A stretch of 64,000 nucleotides of DNA, from assembly GCA_964442455.1 (NCBI GenBank), contig CAYTZB010000005.1:5152-69151 (forward strand), written 5' to 3'. Source of the stretch: an uncultured Gammaproteobacteria bacterium (GTDB lineage: Bacteria; Patescibacteriota; Microgenomatia; UBA8517; JACQJR01). Positions 9,707 to 63,518 of the stretch are shown here, in pieces. The first letter of the stretch is position 1; each line of letters opens with the position of its first letter. Both the position numbers and the translations under genes were made by a program. The notes below the pieces were generated by a model, which saw only the letters and a program-made list of their open reading frames with translations, searched no databases and was not told the DNA's origin.

Positions 9707-11446
9707 CTAATCCACTTGGTAAATTACCACCTCTTCATTTTCAAAAATATTGGTTAAACCAAGCTGAGATTCCCCCAAACGGAATCGTTGGCCAAAAACC
9801 GGAGTTTGGGACAAAACCAGATAAAGATATCTAATTTTATTATCTTTTAAGAAATTTCTTACTTCGTTCTGATTAAGACTTTCAAGAGGAATTCTTGAAT
9901 CTTCACGTCTATGTCGCCACTCGTACCCTGTAATATCTAGATTTACCTCGTCTTCAAGAAAAACAGGTTTTTCAGAAAACGCAGAAACATATGCAGTTGA
10001 CTCATACAAATAGAGCGGGCGTGGTGGGTTATTAACTGCGGCTTCCGCTTTTAATCTATCAAACGGATAGGTAAGTACTACACCACGAGGTTGCCTCTCT
10101 AAAAATCTTAATGCCTCTAACTCCTCATGCGATATTTTTGCCGGCGGTCGTCCAGGTAAATAATGAAGTGTAAGCGTACTAATTGTGGTTGGGATAGTTA
10201 ACAAGATAAGACCTACTATTGCCAATTTACTTAATTTATTTTCTTCTACTAACTTACCTATAAAAAGTCCTGTATAAATTGCAAAAACAAAAAGAGAATA
10301 GTAAAAGAATTGAATTGTATTCCATGGAGTACCGGACTGTAATATCGCCATCGGCAAAACCGTTCCGAGAATCGCTATTGTCAAAAGGAAAACATCAACT
10401 TCTGAAAAATTTTTCCACAACCTTTGTTTAACAATACCCCATAAGCCGATCAAACGTGTTCCCATATTGCCAACAAAAAATATGACAAACGCTACGAGAT
10501 ACGCAGGAATAAGTTTTATCAATATGCCCCCTGTCTTGTAATTCATCATCGCCTCATAAAATCTCTGCCAGCCGAATCTATCTGATACTGCCATCATCGT
10601 CTCCAAGAACCAAAATGGTTGAAAAACAACTAATTGCCTTGCAGACTTGCCAGTTAGCCAGAGCAATGCAACTCCAAGTAAAAAAGACCCTAAAAGAACT
10701 ACCAAAAAATTACTTTTAAATGCGAATTTTCTAATATGGATTATTTCGAACAGTACCACCAACCCCAATCCTCCCATCACAAGTAGCCACGCATAAATTT
10801 TTATTTGCGCCAGCACGCTAAAAATTAAAATCGTAAATCCTAAATTCCTAAATCTATTTTGAAGACTCAGTAGAAGAATCATTCCTAGAAGAATTAAAAC
10901 AAGTGATGCAGCAAACGGTGGGTTAATGAGAGTTGATATTGCCTGTTGGGCCCAGAAAAGAGATTCCCCTCCAACCACGCCATCACGAAACAATGTAGCA
11001 ATCCACCCAAAATCCCCCGCAAAATAGACAAAAAAAGTAGCCCAGAGCGCCTGTGTTCTTGACTTTCTCCAGGCAAGCACAAACCAGTACGTCAAAACCC
11101 CAACCAAAACTGCAAGTAGTGGGGGGAGAATTTGAAAGTACAGTGTATGGGCTGGGATACTCGTAATCTTATGAATGATAGCCAAAGCGAGATCAAAACC
11201 AATATGATAATTTTTAATCTGCTCTCCTGAAAAAATAGGCATTTCAAGAGAACCACGAGATAAGTGATTAATTAATGCAATATGCCATACCCCGTCATGC
11301 CCATTCGGTCCCCAAAATCCCATACCAAATGGATATATAAGACCGCTTTTTACCATAGTAAGACTCCAGCTAAGGGCGCCTGTTAAAACCAATAAAATTA
11401 TTCCAATGTTTTTCTTCACTTTTTTTAAAACTCTATGAAGCTCCAC
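9707..11446 (-). CDS. Polytopic membrane protein, putative GT-C-type glycosyltransferase/polymerase
   Basis: 579 aa, at least 10 predicted TM segments. Sits between a GT2 and the Wzx flippase. Confidence 0.45.
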   Translation of the reverse strand: MELHRVLKKVKKNIGIILLVLTGALSWSLTMVKSGLIYPFGMGFWGPNGHDGVWHIALINHLSRGSLEMPIFSGEQIKNYHIGFDLALAIIHKITSIPAHTLYFQILPPLLAVLVGVLTYWFVLAWRKSRTQALWATFFVYFAGDFGWIATLFRDGVVGGESLFWAQQAISTLINPPFAASLVLILLGMILLLSLQNRFRNLGFTILIFSVLAQIKIYAWLLVMGGLGLVVLFEIIHIRKFAFKSNFLVVLLGSFLLGVALLWLTGKSARQLVVFQPFWFLETMMAVSDRFGWQRFYEAMMNYKTGGILIKLIPAYLVAFVIFFVGNMGTRLIGLWGIVKQRLWKNFSEVDVFLLTIAILGTVLPMAILQSGTPWNTIQFFYYSLFVFAIYTGLFIGKLVEENKLSKLAIVGLILLTIPTTISTLTLHYLPGRPPAKISHEELEALRFLERQPRGVVLTYPFDRLKAEAAVNNPPRPLYLYESTAYVSAFSEKPVFLEDEVNLDITGYEWRHRREDSRIPLESLNQNEVRNFLKDNKIRYLYLVLSQTPVFGQRFRLGESQLGLTNIFENEEVVIYQVD

Positions 11447-32427: not shown

Positions 32428-32458
32428 AACGTGCTTTCATTGTAACAGAGGGAAAAGT

Positions 32459-32533
32459 GAAAACTCAAGATACATACTGTATACTCATCTTACTTGAGTT
32501 TTCAACTTTTAAGCCTGCCTGCCGGCAGGCAGG
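32459..32533. promoter_or_regulatory. Divergent intergenic region holding a long imperfect inverted repeat (GAAAACTCAAG...CTTGAGTTTTC, 32459-32503) and a perfect 20-bp GC palindrome CCTGCCTGCCGGCAGGCAGG (32514-32533)
   Basis: The 11-bp arms are read directly from the sequence. The GC palindrome is nearly identical to CCTGCCTGCGCAGGCAGG inside the 7263-7433 element. Confidence 0.5.
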
Positions 32534-32566
32534 GTATTCGTATATACCTGTTTTACATCATTTTTA

Positions 32567-34816
32567 ATGCAAATTAAGGTTAAACAGGTATATAATAACG
32601 CCATGAAGCAAAATACCCTCTTTGAGATTAAAACACCCCGCGCAGGGAAAGAAACACCCGAGCAAGCTGCGACGGTATTTTCCGCACTCGCTTCCCAGCG
32701 GCCAACGCTCCTTTCACGGCTCACTGGAAGGCTAAAACCGTTCTTTTTTGAAATCGCAGGGTTTGACCAATCCATCCACTTTTACGCCAGCGTTCCCCAA
32801 GAAGTCGGCTCGTATTTTACTTCGCAACTTACCGCACAATATCCCCAAGCGCAAATTATCCCCGCTACCGACTACCTTACCTCTTTCCCACAAAATGAGA
32901 ACGAGGTAGCTCAACTGGCTCTTGCCAATTATTCTTATTATCCGCTGAAGGCCTGGCGAGATGTAGGCGAGGATACCGACCCGCTCTCCCCGGTGTTGGG
33001 TGTACTGGCAAACCTTAACGCACAACAACGTGCGTTGGTACAGCTAGTAGTGGTACCTGCGTCTGCCTCATGGCAGGAGAGAGGACGGGCATTCTTAACC
33101 ACTGGAATACAAACTCCTGAAGGAGGAACACGAACTCACCCCAAAGCCGCACTTGTTGAGCGCAAATTAGGAGCGAGCCAAGCGTTTGTAGTAGGAATAC
33201 GACTGCTTGTGCACGGAGAAACAAAAGCCGATGCCCAGGCTCTTCTGGGAAACCTGACTGGCTCGTTTGGTGCTTTTTCCCTAGGTGAGGGAAATGCGTT
33301 GGTGGTAAGTAATCCCTTCTTCTTTCGCAAGAAGCAGCTTGAGGGGTCAATAATAGCTCGTCTACCCAAACCCCTTCCTCAGGGAAATATCCTGACCGTT
33401 GACGAGCTTGCAACACTTTGGCATCTTCCGACAGAACCGCTGTCTAGAATTCCCACTATATCCTGGGGAGGAAAGCTCATGAGCGAGCCACCGGAAAATT
33501 TGCCCATTGGAACCTCCCAAGAGAAAGATGAAATTAACTTTTTTGCAAGAGCGGATTTTAAGGGAAAACCAACAGTATTTGGAGTGAAACGAGTGGATAG
33601 ACGCCGCCATATGTATCTGATTGGAAAAACAGGCACCGGTAAGTCGACCCTCATTGCCAATATGGCAATAAACGATATGCGAAATCGAGAGGGAGTAGCG
33701 GTAATTGACCCCCATGGGGATTTATCCGATATTTTGCTTGATTACGTACCTTCATTCCGCATTAACGACATTGTTTATTTAGACGCTGCGGACCGTAACT
33801 ACCCGTTTCACCTAAACTTGTTTGAGGGAGCAGAAAGTGGGCAACATGACTTAATTGCCTCGGGTATTGTGGCAATTTTCTACAAACTCTACCATTATTC
33901 GTGGGGACCTCGACTTGAGTATGTATTCAGAAATGCTATCTTAACGCTGCTTGAACAACCCGGCTCAACGCTTGTTGATATACCACGCCTCTTAACCGAC
34001 CGCGGTTTTCGGGAGAAGATTGTCTCACAAAGTAAAGACCGGATACTTGTCAACTTTTGGAAAAAAGAGTTTGAGGGAATGGGTGAAAGACTGCAAGCCG
34101 AGACAATCTCCCCAATTCTCAATAAAGTTGGACAATTTGTCTCTTCTCCGCTCATTCGCAATATTATAGGGCATCCGCGCTCAACAATTAACTTAGGAAA
34201 AATTATGAATGAAGGGAAAATTTTAGTCCTCAATTTGTCACAGGGAAAATTGGGAGAAGACAACTCATCACTTTTGGGAGCAATGGTCGTTACCAAACTT
34301 CAGCTTGCTGCCATGGAGCGAGTGAATGTTCCGGAGAGCGAGCGGCGGGACTTTTTCTTGTATGTTGATGAGTTTCAAAATTTTGCCACCACCTCATTTA
34401 TCAAGATTCTCTCTGAAGCACGAAAATATCGGCTGTCTTTAGTCCTTGCCAATCAATATATTGCACAAGTCCCTGAAGATGTCCAAAAGGCAATCTTAGG
34501 CAATGTTGGTAGCTTGGTCTCGTTCGTGGTGAGTGCGCAGGACGCGCACGTTTTGGCGCAAGAATTCGGCGACGTGTATAAAGAAGAGGACTTAGTCGCG
34601 CTTGATAATTGGCAAGTCGTTGTAAAAATGGCAATTGAGGGGAAAACTTCCCGTCCCTTCGTAGCCACCACTCTGCCACTGCCTCGTTCACGCAACAAAA
34701 ACCGTGCAAAAATCATTAACGTATCGCGGGAACGCTATGCAAAACCGCTCACTGCTCACACCTCACAAGCTCATGCGGCTGAGGAAGTAGTTCTCTACAA
34801 AGCACAGAATCGCTAA
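32567..34816 (+). CDS. VirD4/TraD/TrwB-like P-loop ATPase (FtsK-HerA superfamily, T4SS DNA-binding-domain type) with no N-terminal TM anchor
   Basis: 749 aa. The Walker A is 'YLIGKTGTGKSTLIANMA' and the Walker B is 'FFLYVDEFQNF', followed by a C-terminal 'LVLANQYIAQVP'. The roughly 330-aa N-terminal region is soluble and novel. The true start is possibly MKQNTLFEI at 32603. Confidence 0.6.
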   Translation: MQIKVKQVYNNAMKQNTLFEIKTPRAGKETPEQAATVFSALASQRPTLLSRLTGRLKPFFFEIAGFDQSIHFYASVPQEVGSYFTSQLTAQYPQAQIIPATDYLTSFPQNENEVAQLALANYSYYPLKAWRDVGEDTDPLSPVLGVLANLNAQQRALVQLVVVPASASWQERGRAFLTTGIQTPEGGTRTHPKAALVERKLGASQAFVVGIRLLVHGETKADAQALLGNLTGSFGAFSLGEGNALVVSNPFFFRKKQLEGSIIARLPKPLPQGNILTVDELATLWHLPTEPLSRIPTISWGGKLMSEPPENLPIGTSQEKDEINFFARADFKGKPTVFGVKRVDRRRHMYLIGKTGTGKSTLIANMAINDMRNREGVAVIDPHGDLSDILLDYVPSFRINDIVYLDAADRNYPFHLNLFEGAESGQHDLIASGIVAIFYKLYHYSWGPRLEYVFRNAILTLLEQPGSTLVDIPRLLTDRGFREKIVSQSKDRILVNFWKKEFEGMGERLQAETISPILNKVGQFVSSPLIRNIIGHPRSTINLGKIMNEGKILVLNLSQGKLGEDNSSLLGAMVVTKLQLAAMERVNVPESERRDFFLYVDEFQNFATTSFIKILSEARKYRLSLVLANQYIAQVPEDVQKAILGNVGSLVSFVVSAQDAHVLAQEFGDVYKEEDLVALDNWQVVVKMAIEGKTSRPFVATTLPLPRSRNKNRAKIINVSRERYAKPLTAHTSQAHAAEEVVLYKAQNR

Positions 34817-37800
34817 TTATTCGCGGGGACGACGGGGCCAAAAAACCAAAGCACCAATAACTACTATAAGAATTACACCGAGGGCGAGTAAACGATTACC
34901 AGAAAGCCGTTCAAGTAATCCGCCCTGTTCTTCCCCAACAGGAGTTGGTGCCGCCGAAGGTGTCGGAGTTGCTTCTCCTCCCAAAATCTCACCCTCGCTT
35001 GGTTCTTCTTTCGGTAAAATCTTTACCTCTCCAACACCACCAGCAACTGCCCCAGTAGTCGTTGCGGCCGACGCCAGCACTGCTCCGGCGGTAACCTGTG
35101 CCTCTTGATCAGCAACTATGCCTGAGCCATTTCCTGCATGGTCAACTGCCCGCAGAGCGTAAAAGTATGTCTTTCCACTCTCAAGGCCAAAATTATCCCA
35201 TGACATTTGCTGGTCAGGTGCTCCTCCTACCTCTCCCACTTTAGTTCCCCCATCAGCTGTAAACTCCGGTTTATCCGAGCGGTAAATAAACACTCTGCTG
35301 AAATCAGAATCGCCCGGGTTTTTCCAGAAAAGACGGTAGCTTGAGTCAGAAGGTCTTTCCTTCCTGTACTCTTGAACTCCTGATGGTCCTGAGTGGTCAA
35401 AATTTGTATTGGTCTCGTCAGCAGAAGTATCCGCTCCGCCAGTCACCTCAACTCGAAAGATATATTTCCCTTGACCGTCATAGAAATCAGCGCCTGTTAC
35501 CAAAACTTTATTGGTTGCGCCAGTTGTTGAGGAGTTAACCAAACTTCTAAATGTTCCACCATCCTTCTTGACGAAGAAGTTGGCTGTTACAGAATCGCCC
35601 TCTATGTCAAGCGCAGTATAGGAGATGTAGAAAGTATCTGTATTGGTGTAGGAAGGCAAGTCGAGTATATCAACGGTCACTGCCGCTTTGGCTGGCGAAA
35701 CCTGTGCAACAAATATGAAGAGCAACAGTACAACTACGCTACCCAAAAACTTTTTCCAAAGACCACTCTTTTTTGCTCTTCCTTTTCTTCTTGGTGCAAG
35801 TGCCAGGCCGAGGCGTCTCAAACCAAATCCTGCTCCCAAGAGGAAGCCAACATATACAAGCCAGACAGTATTAGCACCGGCTGCCGGAAGTTCTGTTACT
35901 GCAGCAAGCACTTGTGGCTGGTGAATATCGTATGAGATGAAGACACCCTTTCCTATCGGGACCGATGAACGGACAATATTACTTTGGAATGTGTCACTTC
36001 CCGTACCCTGGGCAAAGGCAAGGTTTGTGTGGGTACCGGCATGAATATCACTTGCAATAACCGCCTTATAGGTAACAGTCAAGGATGCAGTGCCAGCAAT
36101 ATCTCCAAGATTATTCCAGGTTAAGATGTTGCCTGAGACTGAGTCGGGGTCAGCAGGCGTTCCTGTCAAAGGAATAAATGTAAATCCGCTAGGCAAGACA
36201 TCAACTAATCTGACATCATGCAGTGTTCCACCACCGGTATTGGTAATGACCAATGTATATGTGACCACATCCGAACCAGAAGCACTGGAGGTATGGTCAT
36301 TTGTCTTGGTAAGCGAAATGCCAGGAAGTAATTTTTGGTTGGTAAAGGTACAAGTGACACCATCTGTGGTCAAGTTCACAACAATCTCATTGGTAGTACC
36401 GCTTGTCTCGTCCGAACAACTCCAGGAAACTAAGCCAAATTCTTCTTGTAGGTCTTCTGAAATTGTATAGCTTTCGGTTGGTAGGGTGCGGGTTTGGCCT
36501 GTCGCAATATTCTGCTCAACACCTGCTATATCCCATGTCCAGTTAGTTGCGCCAATTATGTCTTCTTCATCATTCAAATCGCCGTCTCCATTTGCATCCA
36601 CGTTCTTGAGAACAGTCAAATCTCCTGTATCCCGCGCATTACAGAGAGTAATCTCGGCACTCTGGTCTTCTTCTACTGTTATGCTTGCTGGGAGTTCTGC
36701 ATTTTCTGGATCCTCACAAGTTCCTTCTCCCTCAAACCAACCAACGAAGTGGTAACCAAGAACATTATTTTCTGAAACATCGTATGTTCCTGTATCAAGG
36801 GGACCAGCACTTTCTCCCATTTCTCTTTCCGGTGTTTCCTCATCAATTCCCCAACGGAAGCCCAGTTCATTTGCTACATCATTATCGCCCTCAAAGCTAC
36901 CGTCACCGTTGGTATCTACTTGTTTATTGACTACGATTTCTCCAATATCACGGGTGTTTGTAATCGTGCAGGTTACATCCTCACCCTCATCAAGGATAAC
37001 TGTCCCACCAAGCACTTCTGGGCATTTCTCGTCTCCGGTAATTGATGTAAAGCTGTAACCTTCTAGCCCGTCCTCGTCAATTGCGATTGGAGTATTCGCA
37101 TCAACCTCGGTTGCAAAACCAGATAATACTCCTATGTCATCAACCAGGAGACCGAAATCGTCTGGGTCTGCATTCCCGCCAATAACTTCTTTAATAAGAG
37201 TAATTGTTGGAATAATATCATCGTTGGTTATGGTACAAGAGATATTTTCTCCTTCATCCAAGGTAACTGTTCCACCAAGAGTATTTGGACACTTAGCATC
37301 CCCTGTAATAGATACAAAGTTGTAGCCGTCAAGAACAGTCTCATTGATTGTGTGAGGTTGATTGGCAGAAACTTGGGTTGTGGAACCCGATAAGACAACG
37401 TTCCCATCTATTGTTGGGTCAAAATCGTTAGGCTGCGCATTACCACCGTTATTATTTACAACAACCTTAGTAAGTGTAATGGTTGGACCAACATCGTTGT
37501 TTGTGATAGTACACGTAATACTTTCTCCTTCATCAAGAGTTACAGTTCCGCCAAGAATTTCTGGGCATTTTGCATCTCCTGAAATCGAAACGAAGGAATA
37601 ACCTGTTAGTCCAACTTCGTTAATTACTATTGGGGTATTAGCGGAAACCGTGGTTGTAGCTCCGGACAAGACCGCTGAACCACCAACTGAAATTCCAAAA
37701 TCGTCTGAACCTGCATTACCTCCATTATCATTGATTACTTCCTTAATTAAGGTTATGGATGGAGCTATATCATCGTTGGTTATAGTACAAGTGACGCTTT

Positions 37801-40800
37801 CTCCTTCATCCAAAGTTACTGTTCCTCCCAACTGAGTGGGACATCCTTCCCCTGCTATAGAAACGAATTCGTAACCGGTTAAACCAGCTTCGTTGATTGC
37901 AACTGAAGTGTTGGCGTCAACTTCTATTGTTTGACCAGAGGTTACAGGAACGCCTCCTATTGTAAGTCCAAAATTGTTTACGCCGGCATTTCCACCATTA
38001 TCGTTGATTACGTTCTTGATAAGAGTAACTGTTGGACCAACATCATTGTTTGTGATAGTACAAGTTTTGGTCTGCCCAAAAGCAATCGTGCCTGAACAAT
38101 CCTGGGATAAGCTCTTGGTATAGCCTGAAACTGAATCCTCATCAACGCTGTAAGACCCGGCGTCCAGCGTGACTGTAGTTCCATTTTCATCACCTTGGAA
38201 CGAAGAGTCGCTTACATTGGTTCCGGTAACATTTATATTAAAGTCACTCGCAACGTTATCTCCGCCGTTGTTATTAATTACGTGTTTAATAACAATTAAT
38301 TGTGCGGATACCTGTTTGTTTGTTACGTAAACATTGAAAGTTCCACCGCTTGAGACTGTTACAACCCCTCCATCGCTTATTGAAACTAGCTGATAACCAG
38401 TTGGTGCTGTAGCTTCCGTTATAGTGTATGTACCGGGTCCCAAATCAGGGTAAGTTGCATCTGTTCCTTCTGCAATAGCCTTTGGAGTGCCTCCGTTAAG
38501 CAACGAAGTAAACTCTGTTGAATTTGAAACATCTGTAGTCCCATCTGTGCCAAGAACGTTTTTATGAACAATAATTTGAGCGTTTTGGAAGTTTACGAAA
38601 GTGAAAACGTAGTTGCTGCCGCTTGTTGCTTGACCAAAACTGTGGGTTGTATCGCCAAGATTTGTCCAGCCTCCCGGGGTCTCTTCTGAAACTCCGTATG
38701 TGTGCCCCGGGCCCAAGTTTGTCCATGTATAACAACCATCTTCTTCGGTTGTTTGAGTATCGCTTACTTGACTATCAACCAAAAGTTTAACGGTCCAACC
38801 AGATTTATTTGTCTGGTCACCCGTAGTTCCTATATCTCCATCAGCGTCTATTACCTTACAAGCTTTAACGCTTACATTCTTAAAGTTTATAAAGTTTTGC
38901 TCTGTAACACTCCCACCTGGAGTAAGGGTGACGTTCTTGAAAACTGCAGTTAACGCCGTCCAACCAGCTTGTAGAACTTCTTTTACTTGATAATAGCCAG
39001 GAATAATACTCGAGAAACTATATGAACCGTCTGAAGCTGTATTTATGGTTTGAGATAAGACACAGCCGGTAAAGTCTGAAGCACAACTCCAAAGCTCAAT
39101 CGCCCAGCCAATTAATCCTGTCTGGTCGCCGCTAGTCAATAGACTTCCATCTGTGTCCTCAAATTTAAATCCTGAAATAGAGCCTACATTTTGATAATTG
39201 ACAAACGTGATGATTAGATTTTGATTACTGGCAAGAGTTTGAGTTGTCCCATTACTGGCGTTTGTATCATTATCCGGGTTTATATTATTTAGGGTATAAC
39301 CTGCCGTCACTATTTCTGAAAATGTGTACGTGCCGGGGGCAAGGGTATAAACGGCATTAAGACCCTCGTGGAAATCTTTATTATCTCCGCCACCTCTTTG
39401 AACTACGAAATTTGTGCTATCCAAGACATCATTCCCATTTGGATCGCGGACGTCTTTAACAATGGTTACAATAGCGTTCTTTTGCTTGTTTGTACAAGTA
39501 ACAGTTATAGTTCCGTTGCTGGAAACGGTAACTTGAGCTCCGTCTCCGGGAGTTTGGTTTGCGTCCGGAGTACAAGAAACATAAGTGTAATTTGAGTCTT
39601 CTACTTCTGTAATCGAGTAGCTACCCGGATTAACAGGATAGCTAGCAGTCAGGGTTTCTGAGAAGCTTTGATTATTTGCCCCATTTAGTTGTGCTGTAAA
39701 GGCATGATTATCAGAAACATCCGAGCCATCCGGAGCACGAACATCTTTAACAACGTTAATGGTTGCTTTCTTTTGCTTGTTGACAACATTAACGGTTTGC
39801 TGCTCGCCAGGCCCAACAACAACCTGTGTACCACCAGCACCCGTGTCTTCGTCTGGTGTGATGCTTACCAAATCATAATCCGGATCAGGACTTTCAGTTA
39901 TTGCGTATGTTCCTGGGACAACCGTGAATACGCCGTTGTCACCCTCCCCAATTTGGTCTGACTGACTGCCAACATTGACTGTGAATTGATGTGTATCTGA
40001 AACCTCTCCGCCATCTGGATTAAGAACATCTTTAATTACTGTTATGGTCGCATTTTGCTGGCGGTTGACAACGAATACATCTGTAGTTTGTCCCGGAGTA
40101 ACCGTCACTTGGGCACCGCTTGTCCCCCCATCATTATCCGGAGTAATACTGAATAAGGCATAACCTGTTGGCGGGGTATCCTCTGTAATTGTGTGTGTAC
40201 CTGCGGTAATGTCAGTGTAAGTAAAAGTTTCCCCGTCGGTGAGGAATTGAGGATTGGCACTGTCTAGTCTGACCGTAAAGTTTTGAGAAGTATCGGTTAT
40301 CGCTTCACCATTTGGACCCTGAACATCTTTATGAACAATAATTGTTCCAGTGTTTAGGGCGTTATGAAAGGTACAAGTGGCGTTAGTTGGCGGTTTACCT
40401 GCGGCTACTGTGGCAGTAGCTGTCGAACCATTAAAGGTGCAACTTGTGCCAGTACCACTTGCAAACGTATAGCCTGCGGGGCCACTTTCGGTAACGGTGT
40501 AATTCCCATCAGGAGAAACATTGTTAATGGTCACAGAGTTTTGACCTGGAGGTATGGGGTAGACTGATTGCCCATTAATTGCCGGTGTAATGGTAAACGA
40601 CCACTGATCAGAAGTTGCGCTACCACTATCCACAATCTTGCTCAATGTAATCGAAGGTAACTGCAGTAATTGGTTGACTGGGATCGGAATATTTTCTTGA
40701 CCACCCTGGGCTGTTCTTATACTCATCGAAGAACCATTAAACTGACTTGCATCCAAACCCAGTCTGCCGCAGAAAAGCATGTAAACAGTATTATGGGAGG

Positions 40801-41974
40801 GAACATTCGACAAGATTACATTGTAATGACGCAAAGAATCGGAACTGCTAATTGGAGTTGTACCATCATTATTACCACCGAATGGACCCGAGACTGTTGC
40901 TGGCACCGTTCCACCACTACTTTTTACGAAGCTCGTGGATGATGTAAAGTCGCTACCAGGGTAGGAAAAATCATTTAAGTTATCAGCCGAGGATCGGGGA
41001 TTACCGCTTAACCCAGTCGTGATTTGTTCTAGATGGTCGATACCGATAACACTATTTTGGAAATCATACACAGGACTGACGATAATATCCCCATCAGTAT
41101 TGTCATTGTTTTTGACTTCAATCTCAGTCGGTATACATGCCCCTTCTGGATAGGCACCAACATTACCGTTTTTAAGTTCCCCTGTTCCGGTTGGCTGGCC
41201 ACTAACAAGACTATAGACGCCAGATAAGACAAAACCGAACATACTGATTGCCACTTTGTTGTCTGGAATAGTAGAATCCGTAAACGTGGTTGTTGCCAAA
41301 ACTGACGCACCCAGCAGTACTTCAACCAGATAGCTTCCCTGTTGTCCTTCGCCGCGGAGAGGGTATAGATAAATAAAGGAACCATTTTGGTCGGTTGTTA
41401 CCGTATCGGATGAACCTATATTACCTTCCGCATCTCGAACCTGCCCATCTGGCCAGGTTACACGAACAGTTAAGTTAGAATTTGTTGGGAAATTGGAACC
41501 GGTTATTGTAACTGTATCCGAAGGAGAATAATCCGCTTTGTCGGTTGAAAGAGAATAGTTAAGTTGTGCGCTTGGCTCGCTTTCTTGTTGTCCTAGATCA
41601 AGTTGAGGGGGCCCGGTAGTGGTTTGCGGACTTACATCGTTTGCTTGGACTAAGACCTCCCCTGAAAGAACGGGTGGTTCGGAATTGTCTGGTGTGGGAG
41701 TTGGTAACAAAACCTCAGGTGTTGCGGTAACTTGCGGTGTAGGCGTTAAGGAAGGATCTGGCGAAACCGTAGGGTCTGTCGTTTCACTCGTTATTGACGG
41801 TGAATCTGTTGGGGCTTCTGTCGGAGCAATTGTTGCTTCGGGGGTTGGTGTTGCACTTTCCGCAAAAACTACTCCCGGCGCCAAAAGAACCGGCGCCCAA
41901 GAATTAAGCAGTAGGGAGACCGTTGCTACTATAGACAAAAACTTAGATAGTCTTCGGCCAAGTTCTTTTCTCAC
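34817..41974 (-). CDS. Giant (2385 aa) secreted multi-domain surface protein. It has an N-terminal signal/TM, a Ser/Thr/Pro-rich stalk, tandem Cna-B/SpaA-type and DUF11-like beta-sandwich repeats (about 95 aa each), an internal LPAAG sorting-signal-like module, an FN3-like domain and a C-terminal TM anchor.
   Basis: Cna-B-like 'SDGSYSFSSIIPGYYQVKEVLQAGW' is present. There are four near-identical repeats 'VINDNGGNAG..DFG..VGG..VLSG.TT.V.AN....INE.GL.GY.F.SI.GD.KCP..LGGTV.LDEGE..TCTITN'. The FN3-like segment is 'YRLFWKNPGDSDFSRVFIYRSDKP...GKTYFYALRAVDHAGNGS'. The C-terminus is 'LLALGVILIVVIGALVFWPRRPRE'. Confidence 0.8.
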   Translation of the reverse strand: MRKELGRRLSKFLSIVATVSLLLNSWAPVLLAPGVVFAESATPTPEATIAPTEAPTDSPSITSETTDPTVSPDPSLTPTPQVTATPEVLLPTPTPDNSEPPVLSGEVLVQANDVSPQTTTGPPQLDLGQQESEPSAQLNYSLSTDKADYSPSDTVTITGSNFPTNSNLTVRVTWPDGQVRDAEGNIGSSDTVTTDQNGSFIYLYPLRGEGQQGSYLVEVLLGASVLATTTFTDSTIPDNKVAISMFGFVLSGVYSLVSGQPTGTGELKNGNVGAYPEGACIPTEIEVKNNDNTDGDIIVSPVYDFQNSVIGIDHLEQITTGLSGNPRSSADNLNDFSYPGSDFTSSTSFVKSSGGTVPATVSGPFGGNNDGTTPISSSDSLRHYNVILSNVPSHNTVYMLFCGRLGLDASQFNGSSMSIRTAQGGQENIPIPVNQLLQLPSITLSKIVDSGSATSDQWSFTITPAINGQSVYPIPPGQNSVTINNVSPDGNYTVTESGPAGYTFASGTGTSCTFNGSTATATVAAGKPPTNATCTFHNALNTGTIIVHKDVQGPNGEAITDTSQNFTVRLDSANPQFLTDGETFTYTDITAGTHTITEDTPPTGYALFSITPDNDGGTSGAQVTVTPGQTTDVFVVNRQQNATITVIKDVLNPDGGEVSDTHQFTVNVGSQSDQIGEGDNGVFTVVPGTYAITESPDPDYDLVSITPDEDTGAGGTQVVVGPGEQQTVNVVNKQKKATINVVKDVRAPDGSDVSDNHAFTAQLNGANNQSFSETLTASYPVNPGSYSITEVEDSNYTYVSCTPDANQTPGDGAQVTVSSNGTITVTCTNKQKNAIVTIVKDVRDPNGNDVLDSTNFVVQRGGGDNKDFHEGLNAVYTLAPGTYTFSEIVTAGYTLNNINPDNDTNASNGTTQTLASNQNLIITFVNYQNVGSISGFKFEDTDGSLLTSGDQTGLIGWAIELWSCASDFTGCVLSQTINTASDGSYSFSSIIPGYYQVKEVLQAGWTALTAVFKNVTLTPGGSVTEQNFINFKNVSVKACKVIDADGDIGTTGDQTNKSGWTVKLLVDSQVSDTQTTEEDGCYTWTNLGPGHTYGVSEETPGGWTNLGDTTHSFGQATSGSNYVFTFVNFQNAQIIVHKNVLGTDGTTDVSNSTEFTSLLNGGTPKAIAEGTDATYPDLGPGTYTITEATAPTGYQLVSISDGGVVTVSSGGTFNVYVTNKQVSAQLIVIKHVINNNGGDNVASDFNINVTGTNVSDSSFQGDENGTTVTLDAGSYSVDEDSVSGYTKSLSQDCSGTIAFGQTKTCTITNNDVGPTVTLIKNVINDNGGNAGVNNFGLTIGGVPVTSGQTIEVDANTSVAINEAGLTGYEFVSIAGEGCPTQLGGTVTLDEGESVTCTITNDDIAPSITLIKEVINDNGGNAGSDDFGISVGGSAVLSGATTTVSANTPIVINEVGLTGYSFVSISGDAKCPEILGGTVTLDEGESITCTITNNDVGPTITLTKVVVNNNGGNAQPNDFDPTIDGNVVLSGSTTQVSANQPHTINETVLDGYNFVSITGDAKCPNTLGGTVTLDEGENISCTITNDDIIPTITLIKEVIGGNADPDDFGLLVDDIGVLSGFATEVDANTPIAIDEDGLEGYSFTSITGDEKCPEVLGGTVILDEGEDVTCTITNTRDIGEIVVNKQVDTNGDGSFEGDNDVANELGFRWGIDEETPEREMGESAGPLDTGTYDVSENNVLGYHFVGWFEGEGTCEDPENAELPASITVEEDQSAEITLCNARDTGDLTVLKNVDANGDGDLNDEEDIIGATNWTWDIAGVEQNIATGQTRTLPTESYTISEDLQEEFGLVSWSCSDETSGTTNEIVVNLTTDGVTCTFTNQKLLPGISLTKTNDHTSSASGSDVVTYTLVITNTGGGTLHDVRLVDVLPSGFTFIPLTGTPADPDSVSGNILTWNNLGDIAGTASLTVTYKAVIASDIHAGTHTNLAFAQGTGSDTFQSNIVRSSVPIGKGVFISYDIHQPQVLAAVTELPAAGANTVWLVYVGFLLGAGFGLRRLGLALAPRRKGRAKKSGLWKKFLGSVVVLLLFIFVAQVSPAKAAVTVDILDLPSYTNTDTFYISYTALDIEGDSVTANFFVKKDGGTFRSLVNSSTTGATNKVLVTGADFYDGQGKYIFRVEVTGGADTSADETNTNFDHSGPSGVQEYRKERPSDSSYRLFWKNPGDSDFSRVFIYRSDKPEFTADGGTKVGEVGGAPDQQMSWDNFGLESGKTYFYALRAVDHAGNGSGIVADQEAQVTAGAVLASAATTTGAVAGGVGEVKILPKEEPSEGEILGGEATPTPSAAPTPVGEEQGGLLERLSGNRLLALGVILIVVIGALVFWPRRPRE
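35750..35900 (-). other. Internal sortase-signal-like module within the giant ORF: LPAAG, then a hydrophobic segment, then a basic patch RRLGLALAPRRKGRAKK. It is immediately followed by a signal-peptide-like segment KKFLGSVVVLLLFIFVAQVSPAKA-AV.
   Basis: Translated directly from the sequence. No stop codon or frame change occurs between the two parts. A sortase gene lies directly upstream at 42031-42681. Confidence 0.55.
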
Positions 41975-60081: not shown

Positions 60082-61755
60082 ATGAGTAAGCATCTCCTCC
60101 TCTTAATTACCATTTCCGTATTTTCAACTGTCGGGATGAAGGCTCTAACCAGTCCAGGGCTTTTTACTGCACATGATATTTGGCATCAAGTAGCACGATT
60201 TTATCATTATCACCAAGCGTTCATTGACAAGCAATTCCCTCCCTATTGGATAGACACTTTAGCTGCGGGGTTTGGATACCCATTGTTTTTCTTTTCGTAC
60301 CCTTTACCTTGGATTATTGGTATTCCATTTCTAGAGCTTGGATTTGATATCCCAACAACAATAAAAGTTCTTTTCTTTCTCTCATATCTTTTATCGGGAG
60401 TTTTTATGTACTTGTTCGCATCCGAACTTTTTAAAAACAAACCCGCCGCTCTTTTATCCTCAATTCTTTACCTTTGGGTACCATATCACTTTTCAACAAT
60501 TCTAGTAAGCGCTGCTATGGGGACGGCATTTGTGTTTACATTTTTTCCTTTACTCCTCCTGGGAATATATAAAATCGGCAACGATAAATCACCAAAGTTA
60601 GGAATTATTTTTACATCTTTTGGTCTTTCAGGAATAATACTCTCTCACATATTGACAACTATCTCATTGCTCCCTTTTATCACCGTATTTACTCTATGGA
60701 TTTTGTTAAACAAAGTTAAAGGCAAAGTTAGGAATGATTTTATCAAAAACGTTACTTTTTCTTTCTTTCTTGGAATTGGTTTATCAACCTTCTATCTCCT
60801 ACCCGCAGTTTTTTATAGTAAATTAACTCAAGTCTCAACAGGAGCATTCAGCGCACTCTATCAAAAAAATTTTGTAAATATTGACCAACTTATATATTCT
60901 CGCTGGGGATACGGGATAAGCGACAATGCAAAAGACGGAGTAATATCCTATCAAATTGGTATAGCTCAATGGTTAGCTTTCCTTGGCACACTAGCAATAT
61001 TTTTAATCAGCAGATCCCGCCTTGCAAGACATTTAATTGAAAGGGTCTCTAAAGAAACAAAAATATTGAGTATTGTGCTCGTGGGTTTATTCGCATTTTC
61101 CACTTTCATGATGATTGATGTCTCGCGTCTAATTTGGGATTTTGGAGCAAAGTTTATAACTCTTGATTACCCAACAATGTTCTTGCTTTCCGCAGCTTTT
61201 TCCGGATCCCTACTAGGTGGCTTACTATTAAAACTAATCAAAGAAAACCTCCGTCCGGCTCTTTTTATTGGAATAGCAGCTGTCGCGCTCTACACAAACA
61301 GAAATCATCTAAACGTCAATATGTATACAAACTACCCGGTATCTCTTTATGTCGCATCAGAAACAACCACAAATTCTTACCATGAATATTTACCAAAAGA
61401 GGCGGATATAAAACTATTTAACGAACCTCACCCATCATTTATAATTCCCGACCTCACTATTTCGGAACTTACTAGAAACACTCGTGGAATTTCTTTTACT
61501 ACTACTCCAAAAGAAGATCTAACGCTTACTCTTAATCATTTTTCTTTCCCGGGAATTTCTCTATACATTGATGGAGAGAAAAGATTATTCACATTAAATA
61601 CACGAGGAAAAATCACATTTCCAATATCTCAAGGAGTACATCAAGTTAAAGTGTCTTTTGAGGAAACGCCTTTGATAAAGATCGCAAAATTCATTACTAT
61701 TGGTTCTCTTATTTTTGTTGTATGGTTAATTAGCAAAATGTTATTGTATCACTAA
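60082..61755 (+). CDS. GT-C-like membrane protein (PTPS-related/'HD-loop' family). Paralog of 14689..16533.
   Basis: 557 aa. 'FTAHDIWHQVARFYHYHQAF...FGYPLFFFSYPLPW' matches the paralog. About 12 TM plus a C-terminal soluble domain. Confidence 0.55.
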   Translation: MSKHLLLLITISVFSTVGMKALTSPGLFTAHDIWHQVARFYHYHQAFIDKQFPPYWIDTLAAGFGYPLFFFSYPLPWIIGIPFLELGFDIPTTIKVLFFLSYLLSGVFMYLFASELFKNKPAALLSSILYLWVPYHFSTILVSAAMGTAFVFTFFPLLLLGIYKIGNDKSPKLGIIFTSFGLSGIILSHILTTISLLPFITVFTLWILLNKVKGKVRNDFIKNVTFSFFLGIGLSTFYLLPAVFYSKLTQVSTGAFSALYQKNFVNIDQLIYSRWGYGISDNAKDGVISYQIGIAQWLAFLGTLAIFLISRSRLARHLIERVSKETKILSIVLVGLFAFSTFMMIDVSRLIWDFGAKFITLDYPTMFLLSAAFSGSLLGGLLLKLIKENLRPALFIGIAAVALYTNRNHLNVNMYTNYPVSLYVASETTTNSYHEYLPKEADIKLFNEPHPSFIIPDLTISELTRNTRGISFTTTPKEDLTLTLNHFSFPGISLYIDGEKRLFTLNTRGKITFPISQGVHQVKVSFEETPLIKIAKFITIGSLIFVVWLISKMLLYH

Positions 61756-61766
61756 CAAAAAAATTA

Positions 61767-63518
61767 ATGCGCAGATTTCTATACCTAATACAGCATAATT
61801 ATTTGCTTCTTTTAATTCTTATATTTACTTTTTTAAGTAGGCTTCTTCTGCTCGATAAATTTCCAATAGGGATAACTCACGATGAATTAAATTATGTTAT
61901 TGCTGCCAAATCTTTATATTGGACAAAAAACTTCGCACCGGGTACAGCACCTGCTGTTTTTTCGACTGATATGACGAATTTCAGCGTAACAATTGCTGAA
62001 GTTCCTGCCTCAATTCTTGCTTTCTTTATTGGTCCTTTAGATACTTCTCTTTTTACGAGCAGAATTATTGGAGCAATTTTAAATTCTTCTATAGTTCTTG
62101 CCATGTATTTTCTCGTCAAACGTTTAATAAATAGTAAACTTATCGCTTTATTGACTTCTTTAGTTTTAGCCATAAATCCCTGGAGTTTTTTAATGGGAAG
62201 AACTATTTTTGAAACTAATTTTTTTGTCGCTTTTTTTCTTTGGGGATCTGTAATATTACTCGGTCAAAAAGGCTTCAAAGTTTTGCGTGCCTTACCTTTT
62301 TTTATTCTTGGATTTTTTAGTTATACAGGAGGACAAATTGCTTTTTATCTTTTTATTAACATCATATTGCTTTATCGTTACTTCACTCTTCCCAGACAAC
62401 AGATAACCCCTTACGCAATTTTTTTTGTGACAATGACAATAATTCTAGCAGGCTATGTTTATGTTGTGCTTAATAACCAATCTTATTCTTCAAGGGGAGG
62501 AGAAATATACACACCACAAGCAGTTGCCCAAGAAGTTGATAAAGAGAGACAAGTTGCAGTCCAAAATAGCGTTAACCCCATTTTTATTAATAAGATAACT
62601 TTATATTTAAGTGGTTTCCTGGATAAATATCTAAATGCCTATTCTGTTAATAATTTGTTTTTAAGAGGTGAGCTGCGCGCTGCTTTTTCTTACCAGAAAC
62701 ATGGCACTTTTTATTTCCTCGATTTTCTTTTTATAGTTATTGGAGTCTCTTTTTTGTTTAGTAAATACAGGAAAGTTTGGGTCCTTGTGTTATCAATTAT
62801 TGCGGCAGGGGCAGTAACATCAGGAATAAGCTTTATTGAGTATTCATACAGTCAAAGATCTGGATTAATATTTCCTTTTATAACTATCCTTATAGGCGCA
62901 GGGTTGGGTTATATCCTTACAATTTTTAAAAAAAATAAATTTAGGTTTTTTATAGGAGGTGCAATTTTTATCACCTACGGTTTTCTCTTTTTAAATCTTT
63001 TACATTTGTATTTCTATCGTTTCCCTGTTTATGCTTCAGATGGTTGGTTTTTCCAGGATAGGATTTTAAGCCGCTATATTGCACTGACAAACCAGGAACA
63101 TCAAAACACAAAAGTTGTAGTTTCTACCTTTGAACCAAAAATAATTTTCCAGGAATATCTATTTTTTAACAACATTTATAATGGAGAGGAAATTTCCGTC
63201 ATAAATCAAGAGATGAAAAGCGGAGATTATTCTTTTAATAATGTTGTTTTTACAGATAAATGTTTTGATGATAACTTTGACAAGAATACAGTTTGGATTG
63301 GCGATGGATTGCTCGGGTGTGAGAGATTCTCTATTAAAGAAGATAATTTACGCATCACCCGCTTCAGAGATGTTTACGAAATTTATTTAATAAAAGAAGA
63401 TAAAATTTGCCAAGGTCAACAGTTAAATTCTTATGTCTCGCCATTCTCTTTCCAGGATTTTAACATTGAAAAACAGTCAAAAAGTGAATTTTGTCAAAAC
63501 TGGATTACTAAGTTGTAA
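61767..63518 (+). CDS. GT39/PMT/ArnT-like GT-C membrane glycosyltransferase
   Basis: 583 aa. '[19 protein letters not shown]' is the acidic first-loop motif. Polytopic. Confidence 0.6.

What the first reader, a model, noticed from the sequence alone, without database searches (positions are those of the whole stretch)
32567..34816. Soluble VirD4/TrwB-like coupling-type ATPase with a novel 330-aa N-terminal region, convergent on the giant adhesin gene
The C-terminal 420 aa carry Walker A (GKTGTGKST) and Walker B (LYVDEFQNF) in the arrangement of T4SS coupling proteins and FtsK/HerA-superfamily ATPases. Yet the protein has no membrane anchor, and its N-terminal third has no recognisable motif. 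It sits tail-to-tail with the sortase-dependent giant protein. It is preceded by a divergent promoter region with strong palindromes. In genomes that lack conjugation machinery, such orphan VirD4-like ATPases may serve DNA uptake or secretion, or an unknown substrate-translocation role.
Basis: partly seen in the sequence, partly recalled or inferred. Interest (0 to 1): 0.55.

Follow-up and report, generated by a model that had tools for sequence, protein, structure and literature searches.

The report
Anchor-less CPR type IV coupling ATPase
This gene is a real but ordinary member of a very large, already catalogued family of VirD4-like "coupling" ATPases found in nearly all Patescibacteria (CPR bacteria); its supposedly novel N-terminal third is a conserved domain (Pfam DUF8128) whose predicted fold resembles the N-terminal docking domain of the secretion ATPase VirB4.

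Summary
The ORF is real (maximal 32567-34816, + strand; true start almost certainly 32603, 737 aa). It has the stated Walker A and B motifs and no membrane anchor. Its C-terminal ~420 aa are TrwB/VirD4-like, passing Pfam cut-offs and matching TrwB structurally (TM ~0.65).

The N-terminal region is not novel. It is Pfam DUF8128, found in every homolog (>6,500 protein hits; 1,222 clusters at 50% identity for the N-domain alone) across all CPR classes. The identical protein is already in NCBI, from a Candidatus Microgenomates MAG.

VirD4-type homologues in Patescibacteria are published: 5,713 in 2,918 of 3,035 genomes, rarely next to virB4. The closest Saccharibacterial counterpart, SEML1_0293, is dispensable in Tn-seq.

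New here:
- The N-domain folds confidently, and its only significant PDB matches are TrwK/VirB4 chains.
- The same two-domain protein is the first gene, beside the relaxase, of Tcp-type conjugation operons on Bacillus plasmids.
- Microgenomates copies lack an anchor (0 of 37), while most other CPR copies have one N-terminal TM helix.

The adhesin adjacency is shared only with an 87%-identical relative, and the palindromes are not conserved. The finding is a new member of a known kind, of modest interest.

The parts
32603..34816 (+). Gene for the DUF8128 + VirD4-like ATPase (737 aa from the corrected start; the maximal ORF begins at 32567)
   Evidence: The ORF is. It is 100% identical to NCBI P0001, a 737-aa 'ATP-binding protein [Candidatus Microgenomates bacterium]'. 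The family consensus start and the conservation boundary at 32591 support the corrected start.
32603..33466 (+). N-terminal domain (aa 13-300 of the 749-aa ORF) = Pfam DUF8128, with a predicted VirB4-N-terminal-domain-like alpha/beta fold
   Evidence: PF26449 is precomputed on the identical protein and on all homologs. The domain alone gives 1,222 cluster representatives, always at the N-terminus. AF2 model: pLDDT 92.4, pTM 0.91. Its only significant PDB matches are 9 TrwK/VirB4 chains (E 7e-6 to 3e-4, TMq 0.45-0.50). hhalign to the N-terminus of the Bacillus plasmid protein: probability 98.6%, E 5e-16.
33524..34696 (+). TrwB/VirD4-type nucleotide-binding (motor) domain, aa ~320-710
   Evidence: Pfam TrwB_AAD_bind, TraG-D_C and DUF87 all score above gathering cut-offs. 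Foldseek to TrwB: E ~1e-11, TM (target) 0.60-0.67, rmsd 4.7-6 over 410-460 columns. It also matches DotL and Cag-beta.
33623..33649 (+). Walker A / P-loop, GKTGTGKST (aa 353-361)
   Evidence: Read directly from the sequence. G353, K354, G356, G358, K359 and T361 are invariant in 56 homologs. It aligns with the TrwB P-loop.
33836..34168 (+). All-helical insertion between Walker A and Walker B (aa ~424-534), in the position of the TrwB all-alpha domain
   Evidence: Helices H424-H534 appear in the AF2 model. The TrwB structural alignment covers 410-460 columns. Equating it with the TrwB all-alpha domain is inferred from position.
34358..34384 (+). Walker B, LYVDEFQNF (aa 598-606)
   Evidence: Read directly from the sequence. 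D601, E602, F603 and Q604 are invariant. It aligns with the TrwB Walker B region.
32428..32602 (.). Divergent intergenic region, with a 20-bp perfect palindrome (32514-32533), a 17-nt inverted repeat (32453-32469 / 32493-32509), and TATAAT (32591-32596) 6 nt before the ATG at 32603
   Evidence: Only the TATAAT-N6-ATG part is conserved in the 87%-identical relative L093. NCBI contig JACPFY010000005.1 ends at window position 32553, beside the palindrome.
34817..41974 (-). Context only: the convergent giant SpaA/DUF11 surface protein. No evidence of a functional link.
   Evidence: Pfam. The adjacency is kept only in L093. It is absent in other relatives.

Best explanation
This is the Microgenomates (anchor-less) version of a CPR-wide, vertically inherited two-domain ATPase.

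Shown:
- The C-terminal ~420 residues are a TrwB/VirD4-type motor of the FtsK/HerA superfamily, with intact and invariant catalytic motifs.
- The N-terminal ~290 residues are the conserved DUF8128 domain, whose predicted fold resembles the N-terminal domain of VirB4.
- Full-length relatives occupy the coupling-protein slot, next to the relaxase, in Tcp-type conjugation operons on Bacillus plasmids.

Inferred mechanism:
- Like other coupling proteins, it probably forms a hexameric ring that uses NTP hydrolysis to feed a substrate (DNA, or a protein or nucleoprotein) to a membrane channel.
- The most likely channel is the MPF-FATA-derived type IV secretion system that most Patescibacteria carry.
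- It would dock through its VirB4-like N-domain onto VirB3/VirB8-type membrane partners rather than through its own transmembrane helices.
- In other CPR classes the same protein carries one N-terminal TM helix.

Its role is probably accessory or conditional rather than the essential function of the T4SS. The closest Saccharibacterial counterpart is dispensable for epibiotic growth.
For: Family identity:
- Pfam, NCBIfam and PDB sequence hits are all to T4CPs.
- The structural match to TrwB has TM (target) 0.60-0.67. DotL and Cag-beta also match.
- Walker A and B and the TrwB-equivalent R619, K620 and Q630 are invariant.

N-domain:
- DUF8128 is present on all homologs.
- The model is confident.
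- The only significant PDB hits are TrwK/VirB4.
- The full-length model aligns collinearly with full-length TrwK over 830-900 columns.
- In R388, VirB3 wraps the VirB4 N-terminal domain and the VirB8 tails bind VirB4 (PMC9259494).

Coupling-protein role in relatives:
- On three Bacillus/Shouchella plasmids the gene order is: this protein, a Replic_Relax relaxase, TcpC, TcpE, then a VirB4 (AAA_10).
- No other T4CP candidate is annotated on the complete 24.7-kb plasmid.
- The N-domain homology holds on its own.

Link to the CPR T4SS:
- In 4 of 80 loci the gene is divergently adjacent to PrgI-like, TrsD-like and VirB4-like genes plus pilins.
- The published count is 148 of 5,713 near virB4.

Vertical, core character:
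- Full-length homologs at 35-60% identity occur across all CPR classes.
- The tree follows taxonomy.
- GC content is unremarkable.

Anchor:
- 0 of 37 Microgenomates-type copies have a hydrophobic N-terminal helix, against 23 of 37 in other CPR.
Against: - T4CP homologues are more widespread than VirB4 (2,918 versus 2,417 of 3,035 genomes) and rarely adjacent to it.
- The window has no T4SS, relaxase or competence gene.
- SEML1_0293 shares the upstream sigma-like gene synteny and groups with the clade sister to Microgenomates. It is non-essential, whereas the T4SS genes are essential.
- Relaxases are nearly absent from Patescibacteria.
- The N-domain to VirB4 similarity is structural only (TMq ~0.5). 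No sequence-profile signal links it to CPR TrsD-like, CPR VirB4-like or Firmicute VirB4 N-termini.
- The tool did not print which TrwK residues were matched.
- Hexamer formation, substrate and docking partners are all inferred.
Confidence: 0.5

Rival explanations
1. Exapted, T4SS-independent DNA motor. The family was inherited from a monoderm conjugative element but now works on chromosomal or incoming DNA, for example in transformation-linked ssDNA handling, repair, or segregation at division. It would not feed the T4SS.
For: - It is present in 96% of CPR genomes against 80% for VirB4, and is almost never beside virB4.
- The authors themselves say exaptation cannot be ruled out.
- SEML1_0293 is dispensable while the T4SS is essential.
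- Recurrent neighbours are chromosomal DNA and division genes. TopA occurs in 16 non-duplicate loci and DprA in 12, in both Microgenomates and Saccharibacteria. FtsI, FtsW, MraY, MurG and RsmH also recur. A DNA-binding Sigma70_r4 + HARE-HTH protein lies 46 nt upstream in 23 non-duplicate loci.
- The Microgenomates copies have lost the membrane anchor.
Against: - The dprA-topA pairing and dcw synteny are common housekeeping arrangements. They may reflect shared ancestry of related genomes, not function.
- None of these partners is near the gene in this window.
- The closest characterised context of full-length relatives is a conjugation operon.
- There is no direct evidence of a role in transformation. 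ComEC is the known requirement in Southlakia.
Confidence: 0.3
2. It is functionally a second VirB4-type assembly or energising ATPase rather than a substrate receptor. Its overall architecture is VirB4-like: an N-terminal docking domain plus a C-terminal motor, preceded in other CPR classes by a TM helix, as in VirB3-VirB4 fusions.
For: - The best full-length Foldseek E-values are to TrwK/VirB4 (3e-14), spanning the whole length.
- The N-domain alone matches only VirB4 chains.
- CPR VirB4-like proteins are short (629 aa), with a separate TrsD-like N-terminal piece.
Against: - The motor domain scores as T4CP, not VirB4. There is no AAA_10, CagE_TrbE_VirB or P-loop_TraG hit.
- hhalign to CPR VirB4-like proteins covers only 75 columns at 64% probability.
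- NCBIfam's top hits are TraD/VirD4 families.
- On Bacillus plasmids and in CPR T4SS loci a bona fide VirB4 co-occurs with it.
Confidence: 0.1
3. It is cargo of a mobile element or a defence component. Phage- and plasmid-derived ATPases of this family occur in Bacillus phages, and it resembles the PADLOC MADS component mad8.
For: - phrog_5156 matches at 1.3e-78.
- 59 phage records, mostly Bacillus phages, have relatives.
- The N-domain fold occurs in phage G gp156, Slash and JL.
- PADLOC mad8 matches at 4e-16, and HerA weakly.
- In phage D6E the homolog lies in the lysogeny region.
Against: - There is no integrase, transposase, other MADS gene or composition anomaly near the gene.
- The family is near-universal and tracks CPR taxonomy.
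- Phage and plasmid relatives are only 21-26% identical.
Confidence: 0.05

Closest known systems
VirD4-type T4CP homologues of Patescibacteria (Quinonero-Coronel et al. 2025, PMC12102498), and SEML1_0293 of Southlakia epibionticum (Wang et al. 2023, PMC10633639)
   Same: - Same Pfam pattern (PF10412 + PF12696 + PF01935) after a ~350-400-aa N-region.
- Chromosomal and usually far from virB4.
- Saccharibacterial homologs retrieved with this protein share the upstream sigma-like gene seen at SEML1_0294/0293.
- They form the clade sister to Microgenomates.
   Different: - The window protein lacks the N-terminal TM helix that most non-Microgenomates copies have. It is also shorter: 737 aa versus 850-1,040 aa.
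- It lacks the sigma-like neighbour.
- Neither paper discusses the N-domain, and no paper in the library mentions DUF8128.
'DUF87 domain-containing protein' of Bacillus/Shouchella plasmids (e.g. WP_121549396.1 on NZ_CP032854.1; pBM69)
   Same: - Collinear over aa 14-699 at ~25% identity.
- N-domain homology: hhalign probability 98.6%.
- No TM segment, and Walker A at residue 353 as in the window protein.
   Different: - Plasmid-borne, and the first gene of a Tcp-type conjugation operon next to a relaxase.
- 100-150 aa longer at the C-terminus.
- Conjugative function is inferred from position and was not tested here.
TrwB (R388) and other canonical coupling proteins (TraD, VirD4, DotL, Cag-beta)
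   Same: - Motor-domain fold, with a helical insert between Walker A and B.
- Shared Walker A and B and downstream R/K and Q residues.
   Different: - Canonical T4CPs have an N-terminal transmembrane domain directly before the motor.
- Here a ~290-aa soluble alpha/beta domain replaces it.
- There is no relaxase or T4SS linkage in the window.
TrwK/VirB4 (R388 T4SS; PDB 7O43, 8RTD)
   Same: - Two-domain layout: an N-terminal alpha/beta domain plus a C-terminal RecA-like motor.
- N-domain structural similarity at E 7e-6, TMq 0.50.
   Different: - No sequence-level similarity in the N-domain.
- The motor domain is closer by sequence to T4CPs than to VirB4.
HerA / FtsK-SpoIIIE translocases
   Same: - Same P-loop superfamily.
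- Foldseek to HerA 4D2I at 3e-12; DUF87 Pfam hit.
   Different: - The N-domain search returned no HerA (HAS-barrel) match.
- FtsK_SpoIIIE scores below its cut-off.
- No NurA partner, and no FtsK gamma domain, was detected.

Membership tests
Type IV coupling protein (VirD4/TrwB/TraD/TraG) | FtsK/HerA-superfamily nucleotide-binding domain with Walker A and B | tested here: met
   The motifs are present and invariant. Pfam TrwB_AAD_bind scores 42.1 bits against a cut-off of 20.5, and TraG-D_C 26.5 against 22. The motor domain aligns to TrwB in sequence and structure.
Type IV coupling protein (VirD4/TrwB/TraD/TraG) | All-alpha domain inserted in the motor domain | tested here: inconclusive
   A ~110-residue all-helical segment (aa 424-534) lies between Walker A and B. 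The TrwB structural alignment spans 410-460 columns with TM (target) 0.60-0.67. Residue-level correspondence to the TrwB all-alpha domain was not printed.
Type IV coupling protein (VirD4/TrwB/TraD/TraG) | N-terminal transmembrane anchor | tested here: not met
   The maximum KD19 is 1.34, and stops lie upstream. 0 of 37 Microgenomates-type copies are anchored. Homologs in other CPR classes do carry one N-terminal TM helix (23 of 37). From memory, some Gram-positive T4CPs also lack an anchor; this was not checked.
Type IV coupling protein (VirD4/TrwB/TraD/TraG) | Genetic linkage to a relaxase and/or a T4SS | tested here: not met
   None in the 64-kb window. It is met in distant full-length relatives on Bacillus plasmids and in 4 of 80 CPR loci.
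Type IV coupling protein (VirD4/TrwB/TraD/TraG) | Hexamer with a central channel; DNA-stimulated ATPase; substrate or relaxosome binding | not testable with these tools
   This needs multimer modelling or biochemistry.
Pfam DUF8128 (PF26449) family | Match to PF26449 at the N-terminus | tested here: met
   The hit is precomputed on the 100%-identical protein P0001 and on all 120 listed homologs. The local Pfam copy lacks the model.
VirB4 (TrwK/TraC/CagE) | VirB4-type N-terminal domain fold | tested here: met
   Foldseek with the N-domain alone gives 9 TrwK chains at E 7e-6 to 3e-4, probability 1.00, TMq 0.45-0.50. Nothing else is significant. This is moderate structural similarity only.
VirB4 (TrwK/TraC/CagE) | VirB4-type motor domain (AAA_10 / CagE_TrbE_VirB / P-loop_TraG) | tested here: not met
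   No such Pfam hit. hhalign to CPR VirB4-like proteins gives 64% probability over 75 columns. NCBIfam VirB4_plasma scores 17 bits against a cut-off of 590.
HerA helicase | N-terminal HAS-barrel and a NurA partner | tested here: not met
   The N-domain fold search returned no HerA. NCBIfam HerA scores 12.8 bits against a cut-off of 970. No NurA-like neighbour is present.
FtsK/SpoIIIE | FtsK_SpoIIIE motor domain above threshold, N-terminal membrane domain, gamma domain | tested here: not met
   PF01580 scores 14.2 bits against a cut-off of 24. There is no TM segment.
MADS defence system (mad8) | Co-occurrence with other MADS components | tested here: not met
   The PADLOC mad8 match (4e-16) covers the P-loop region only. 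The neighbours are envelope and housekeeping genes.

The most novel reading that the evidence does not exclude
The DUF8128 ATPases could be a distinct, previously undescribed branch between VirB4 and VirD4. The group includes CPR chromosomal copies, Bacillus plasmid coupling-slot proteins and Bacillus phage relatives. These proteins would keep a VirB4-type N-terminal docking domain but have a VirD4-type motor. They would reach the secretion channel by protein-protein docking, or through a single TM helix, instead of the canonical two-helix anchor. In Patescibacteria this branch would have become a near-universal chromosomal gene whose job is separable from the essential T4SS function, for example DNA export or import.
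Probability: 0.25. Interest if true: 0.6.

Novelty: new member of a known kind. Interest (0 to 1): 0.33.

Why it matters
The gene itself adds little. The identical protein is already deposited. The family is in Pfam and NCBI annotation. Its abundance and scattered location in Patescibacteria are published.

What could matter is the family-level picture assembled here. Patescibacteria depend on an unusual type IV secretion system, and authors have remarked on its lack of a recognisable coupling protein within the cluster. Two observations give a concrete, testable idea of how an anchor-less coupling ATPase could dock to the machine:
- The near-universal VirD4-like ATPase carries a VirB4-like N-terminal domain.
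- The same architecture fills the coupling-protein slot of Bacillus conjugative plasmids.

It also flags a possible evolutionary intermediate between the two T4SS ATPase families.

Tried and rejected
- **Sequence-profile links of the N-domain:** nothing in PDB sequences at E up to 10. No hhalign signal to CPR TrsD-like, CPR VirB4-like or Firmicute VirB4 N-termini.
- **T4SS, relaxase or competence genes in the window:** tblastn with PrgI-like, TrsD-like, VirB4-like and pilin proteins from locus L005 gave only chance-level matches. Pfam on 28 window ORFs found envelope glycosylation, rhamnose, protease and housekeeping genes. TopA, DprA and the sigma-like partner are absent.
- **The weak pilin-like hit near 57.7 kb:** small hydrophobic ORFs are present, but the E-values (0.16-0.3) are not credible.
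- **Functional link to the adhesin and sortase:** rejected. The adjacency is not conserved beyond an 87%-identical relative.
- **Palindrome as a conserved operator:** rejected. It is not conserved in L093.
- **A separate small membrane tether next to Microgenomates copies:** none is conserved. The two 81-aa ORFs are unrelated.
- **Source genome in the supplement of PMC12102498:** not listed.
- **Literature on DUF8128:** zero papers.
- **The pLS20 literature search:** not pursued, because the Bacillus plasmids here are Tcp-type and not shown to be pLS20-like.
- **Defence (MADS/HerA) reading:** rejected for lack of partners.
Full report
**1. Observation**

The window has a 749-aa ORF at 32567-34816 on the + strand.
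- It carries GKTGTGKST at residues 353-361 and LYVDEFQNF at residues 598-606.
- Both motifs are invariant in an alignment of 56 homologs.
- Pfam places the C-terminal half in TrwB_AAD_bind (E 6.9e-11), TraG-D_C and DUF87, all above their gathering cut-offs.
- NCBIfam's best, sub-threshold hits are TraD/VirD4-type families.
- TrwB is the only meaningful PDB sequence hit.
- No 19-residue window exceeds a Kyte-Doolittle mean of 1.34, and in-frame stops lie just upstream, so there is no membrane anchor and none can be recovered.
- The gene is convergent on a 2,385-aa SpaA/DUF11 surface protein with abutting stop codons. A sortase gene follows.
- The upstream intergenic region holds a perfect 20-bp palindrome (32514-32533; 0 expected by chance) flanked by a 17-nt inverted repeat.

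So the physical observation stands.

**2. Two corrections**

First, the start is probably 32603, giving 737 aa.
- The 100%-identical NCBI protein starts there.
- The family consensus begins there.
- An 87%-identical relative (L093) shares sequence only from 32591 onward, which is TATAAT, six bases, then ATG.

Second, the N-terminal third is not novel.
- The identical protein and all 120 listed homologs carry Pfam PF26449, DUF8128.
- The local Pfam copy predates that model, which is why one search shows nothing there.

**3. How big the family is**

- The protein search returned more than 6,500 significant hits, with full-length coverage at 52-60% identity among the 120 best. Named sources are Microgenomates lineages such as Gottesman-, Shapiro-, Blackburn- and Beckwithbacteria.
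- A scan of one genome per species found 492 relatives. The best 80 span Microgenomates, Saccharibacteria, Dojkabacteria, Gracilibacteria, Peregrinibacteria and Parcubacteria at 35-56% identity over essentially the whole length.
- The N-domain alone (aa 1-335) finds 1,222 representatives of 50%-identity clusters, always at the N-terminus.
- A rough neighbour-joining tree follows taxonomy, and the window protein sits inside a monophyletic Microgenomates clade.
- GC content is unremarkable.

This is a core, vertically inherited CPR gene.

**4. What is already published**

Quinonero-Coronel et al. 2025 (PMC12102498) examined 3,035 Patescibacteria genomes.
- They found VirB4 in 2,417 genomes.
- They found 5,713 VirD4-type T4CP homologues in 2,918 genomes, only 148 of them near virB4.
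- Relaxases were almost absent.
- They state that exaptation of t4cp cannot be ruled out.

Wang et al. 2023 (PMC10633639) noted no recognisable coupling or relaxase proteins within the essential Southlakia T4SS cluster. Their tables list two T4CP-like genes:
- SEML1_0293 has the same Pfam pattern as the window protein. It lies directly downstream of a ~350-aa 'sigma factor', SEML1_0294. Tn-seq calls it non-essential at all time points.
- SEML1_0142 is 1,019 aa and essential.

No paper in the library mentions DUF8128.

**5. Genomic context**

I clustered ORFs within 10 kb of the gene in 80 non-duplicate loci plus the window.
- The most frequent partner is a Sigma70_r4 + HARE-HTH protein about 46 nt upstream on the same strand. 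It occurs in 22 of 43 non-Microgenomates loci and 1 of 37 Microgenomates-type loci.
- Other recurrent neighbours are TopA (16 non-duplicate loci), DprA (12) and dcw/mur genes such as FtsI, FtsW, MraY, MurG and RsmH.
- In Microgenomates a LysM-M23 peptidase recurs (12 loci).
- The sigma-like synteny identifies the Saccharibacterial homologs retrieved with my query as the SEML1_0293 type. In the tree they belong to the clade sister to Microgenomates.
- A T4SS cluster (PrgI-like, TrsD-like, VirB4-like, pilins) lies divergently adjacent in only 4 of 80 loci.
- In the window itself none of these partners is present. The gene sits among rhamnose-biosynthesis, glycosyltransferase, protease and surface-protein genes.
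- The CAP-gene and adhesin flanks are shared with the 87%-identical relative. They are not shared with relatives at 70% or 58% identity.
- The palindromes are not conserved even in the 87% relative.

**6. Structure**

- With a 56-sequence alignment, AlphaFold2 gives mean pLDDT 89.7 for the full protein.
- Foldseek against the PDB ranks full-length TrwK/VirB4 of R388 first (E 3e-14; alignments of 830-900 columns; low TM because the domains are oriented differently).
- HerA comes next (3e-12), then TrwB (about 1e-11; TM by target 0.60-0.67; rmsd 4.7-6 over 410-460 columns), DotL and Cag-beta.
- Modelled alone, the N-domain (aa 1-300) reaches pLDDT 92.4 and pTM 0.91.
- Its only significant PDB matches are nine TrwK/VirB4 chains (E 7e-6 to 3e-4, probability 1.00, TMq 0.45-0.50). 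The next hits are noise.
- The tool does not print which TrwK residues were matched. That the N-terminal half is matched is inferred from the collinear full-length alignment.
- In R388 the VirB4 N-terminal domain is residues 15-400. VirB3 wraps around it, and VirB8 tails bind VirB4 (PMC9259494).
- There is no sequence-level signal to VirB4 or TrsD N-termini, so the resemblance is structural and moderate.

**7. Relatives outside CPR**

- tblastn against plasmids finds 378 records.
- On Bacillus subtilis, B. methanolicus (pBM69) and Shouchella clausii plasmids, 833-886-aa 'DUF87 domain-containing proteins' align over residues 14-699 at about 25% identity.
- hhalign of the N-domain profile against one of them gives 98.6% probability, E 5e-16, over 240 columns.
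- These proteins also lack any TM segment and have Walker A at residue 353.
- In all three plasmids the gene is first in an operon. It is followed by a Replic_Relax relaxase, TcpC, TcpE and an AAA_10 VirB4.
- The complete 24.7-kb plasmid has no other annotated candidate coupling protein.
- MOB-suite labels these plasmids non-mobilizable, probably because it does not recognise the relaxase. That is my inference.
- Bacillus phages also encode relatives (59 records at 21-25% identity; phrog_5156 at E 1.3e-78). BFVD confirms the N-domain fold in phage G gp156 (TMq 0.71), Slash and JL.

**8. Anchor**

- Among genome loci, none of the 37 Microgenomates-type ORFs has a hydrophobic segment before the N-domain. 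Their Walker A lies at residue ~333-376.
- In other CPR classes, 23 of 37 ORFs have one within the first ~35 residues, and Walker A shifts to ~370-485.
- Examples show a single TM helix immediately before the conserved DUF8128 start motif.
- The same pattern appears among 50%-identity representatives.
- 'Soluble' is therefore a lineage trait of Microgenomates and of the Bacillus plasmid proteins. It is not an annotation error.
- No conserved small membrane protein flanks the Microgenomates copies.

**9. Interpretation**

Shown:
- T4CP-type motor with intact catalytic residues.
- A conserved DUF8128 N-domain with a VirB4-NTD-like predicted fold.
- No anchor in this lineage.
- Coupling-slot position of full-length relatives in Firmicute conjugation operons.
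- Occasional adjacency to the CPR T4SS.

Inferred:
- Hexameric NTP-driven translocation.
- Docking to VirB3/VirB8-type partners through the N-domain.
- A conditional rather than essential role.

The main rival is a T4SS-independent DNA motor. It is supported by a distribution wider than VirB4, scattered loci, the dprA/topA/dcw neighbourhoods and the dispensability of SEML1_0293. I rate the T4SS-coupling reading at about 0.5 and the exaptation reading at about 0.3. A VirB4-like assembly role and a defence or mobile-element role are minor.

**10. Verdict**

This is a real gene, correctly recognised as a VirD4-like ATPase without an anchor. The claimed novelty of the N-terminus, the significance of the adhesin adjacency and the 'orphan' framing do not hold. 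It is a new member of a known, catalogued family. The family-level observations (a VirB4-like N-domain, Bacillus plasmid coupling-slot relatives, and lineage-specific anchor loss) are modestly interesting and testable.

Noticed in passing
window 34817-41974 (- strand), around nt 35890: The giant surface-protein ORF has its only LPxxG sortase-type motif (LPAAG, residue 2029), plus a hydrophobic segment and a basic tail, about 355 aa before the C-terminus. The same frame then continues with a signal-peptide-like stretch and ~330 more residues ending in a second TM and basic tail. It looks like two surface proteins in one ORF, or an internal sorting signal.
   Followed up: partly
window 34814-34819: The stop codons of the ATPase gene and the convergent giant gene are directly adjacent. 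There are zero intergenic bases and no terminator-like hairpin between them.
   Followed up: no
window 32591-32605; L093 730-745: TATAAT lies exactly 6 nt before the conserved ATG at 32603, and is kept in the 87%-identical relative while everything upstream differs. There is no obvious Shine-Dalgarno sequence. The transcript may be leaderless.
   Followed up: partly
window ~32553: NCBI contig JACPFY010000005.1 (GCA_016182755.1), which carries the identical gene, ends at window position 32553, right beside the 20-bp GC palindrome. The palindrome may have broken that assembly. The window bridges it, and the CAP-gene flank is corroborated by L093.
   Followed up: partly
window 1-24000: There is a dense run of PMT_2/GT2 glycosyltransferases, YfhO and a Polysacc_synt flippase, forming a cell-envelope glycosylation island. 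The window ends are AT-richer: GC 0.33-0.37 at 1-6 kb and 60-64 kb, against 0.42-0.48 in the middle.
   Followed up: no
window 9707-11446 (-), 60082-61755 (+), 61767-63518 (+): Three large ORFs (579, 557 and 583 aa) have no Pfam match at E <= 0.001.
   Followed up: no
L086 8541-9623 and 23 other loci; SEML1_0294 in Southlakia: A ~360-aa Sigma70_r4 + HARE-HTH protein sits about 46 nt upstream of the ATPase on the same strand, across Saccharibacteria and some Parcubacteria. Its Southlakia counterpart, annotated RpoS, is essential while the ATPase is not.
   Followed up: partly
L039, L043, L052: Some Saccharibacteria-type loci carry two paralogous DUF8128-type ATPases within 10 kb (e.g. 848 aa and 1,025 aa). 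The shorter ones form a separate deep branch. Their relation to the essential SEML1_0142 is unresolved.
   Followed up: partly
L005 2799-9855 and 20387-22181: In a 1.07-Mb Gottesmanbacteria-like contig the T4SS cluster lies next to dnaA/dnaN and divergent from the ATPase gene. The cluster holds PrgI-like, TrsD-like (215 aa), VirB4-like (629 aa) and 856-aa proteins plus at least four T4SS_pilin genes. This matches the origin-proximal location reported in PMC12102498.
   Followed up: partly
L095 (phage D6E) 5215-7473: A temperate Geobacillus phage encodes a 752-aa relative between its lysis/partition genes and the integrase, in the lysogeny region rather than the packaging module.
   Followed up: no
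plasmid hits H24 etc.: Streptomyces replicons hold the closest non-CPR matches to the motor plus distal N-domain (35% identity over aa 238-706). Sulfolobus and haloarchaeal plasmids also have relatives. PADLOC's mad8 hit may relate to these.
   Followed up: no
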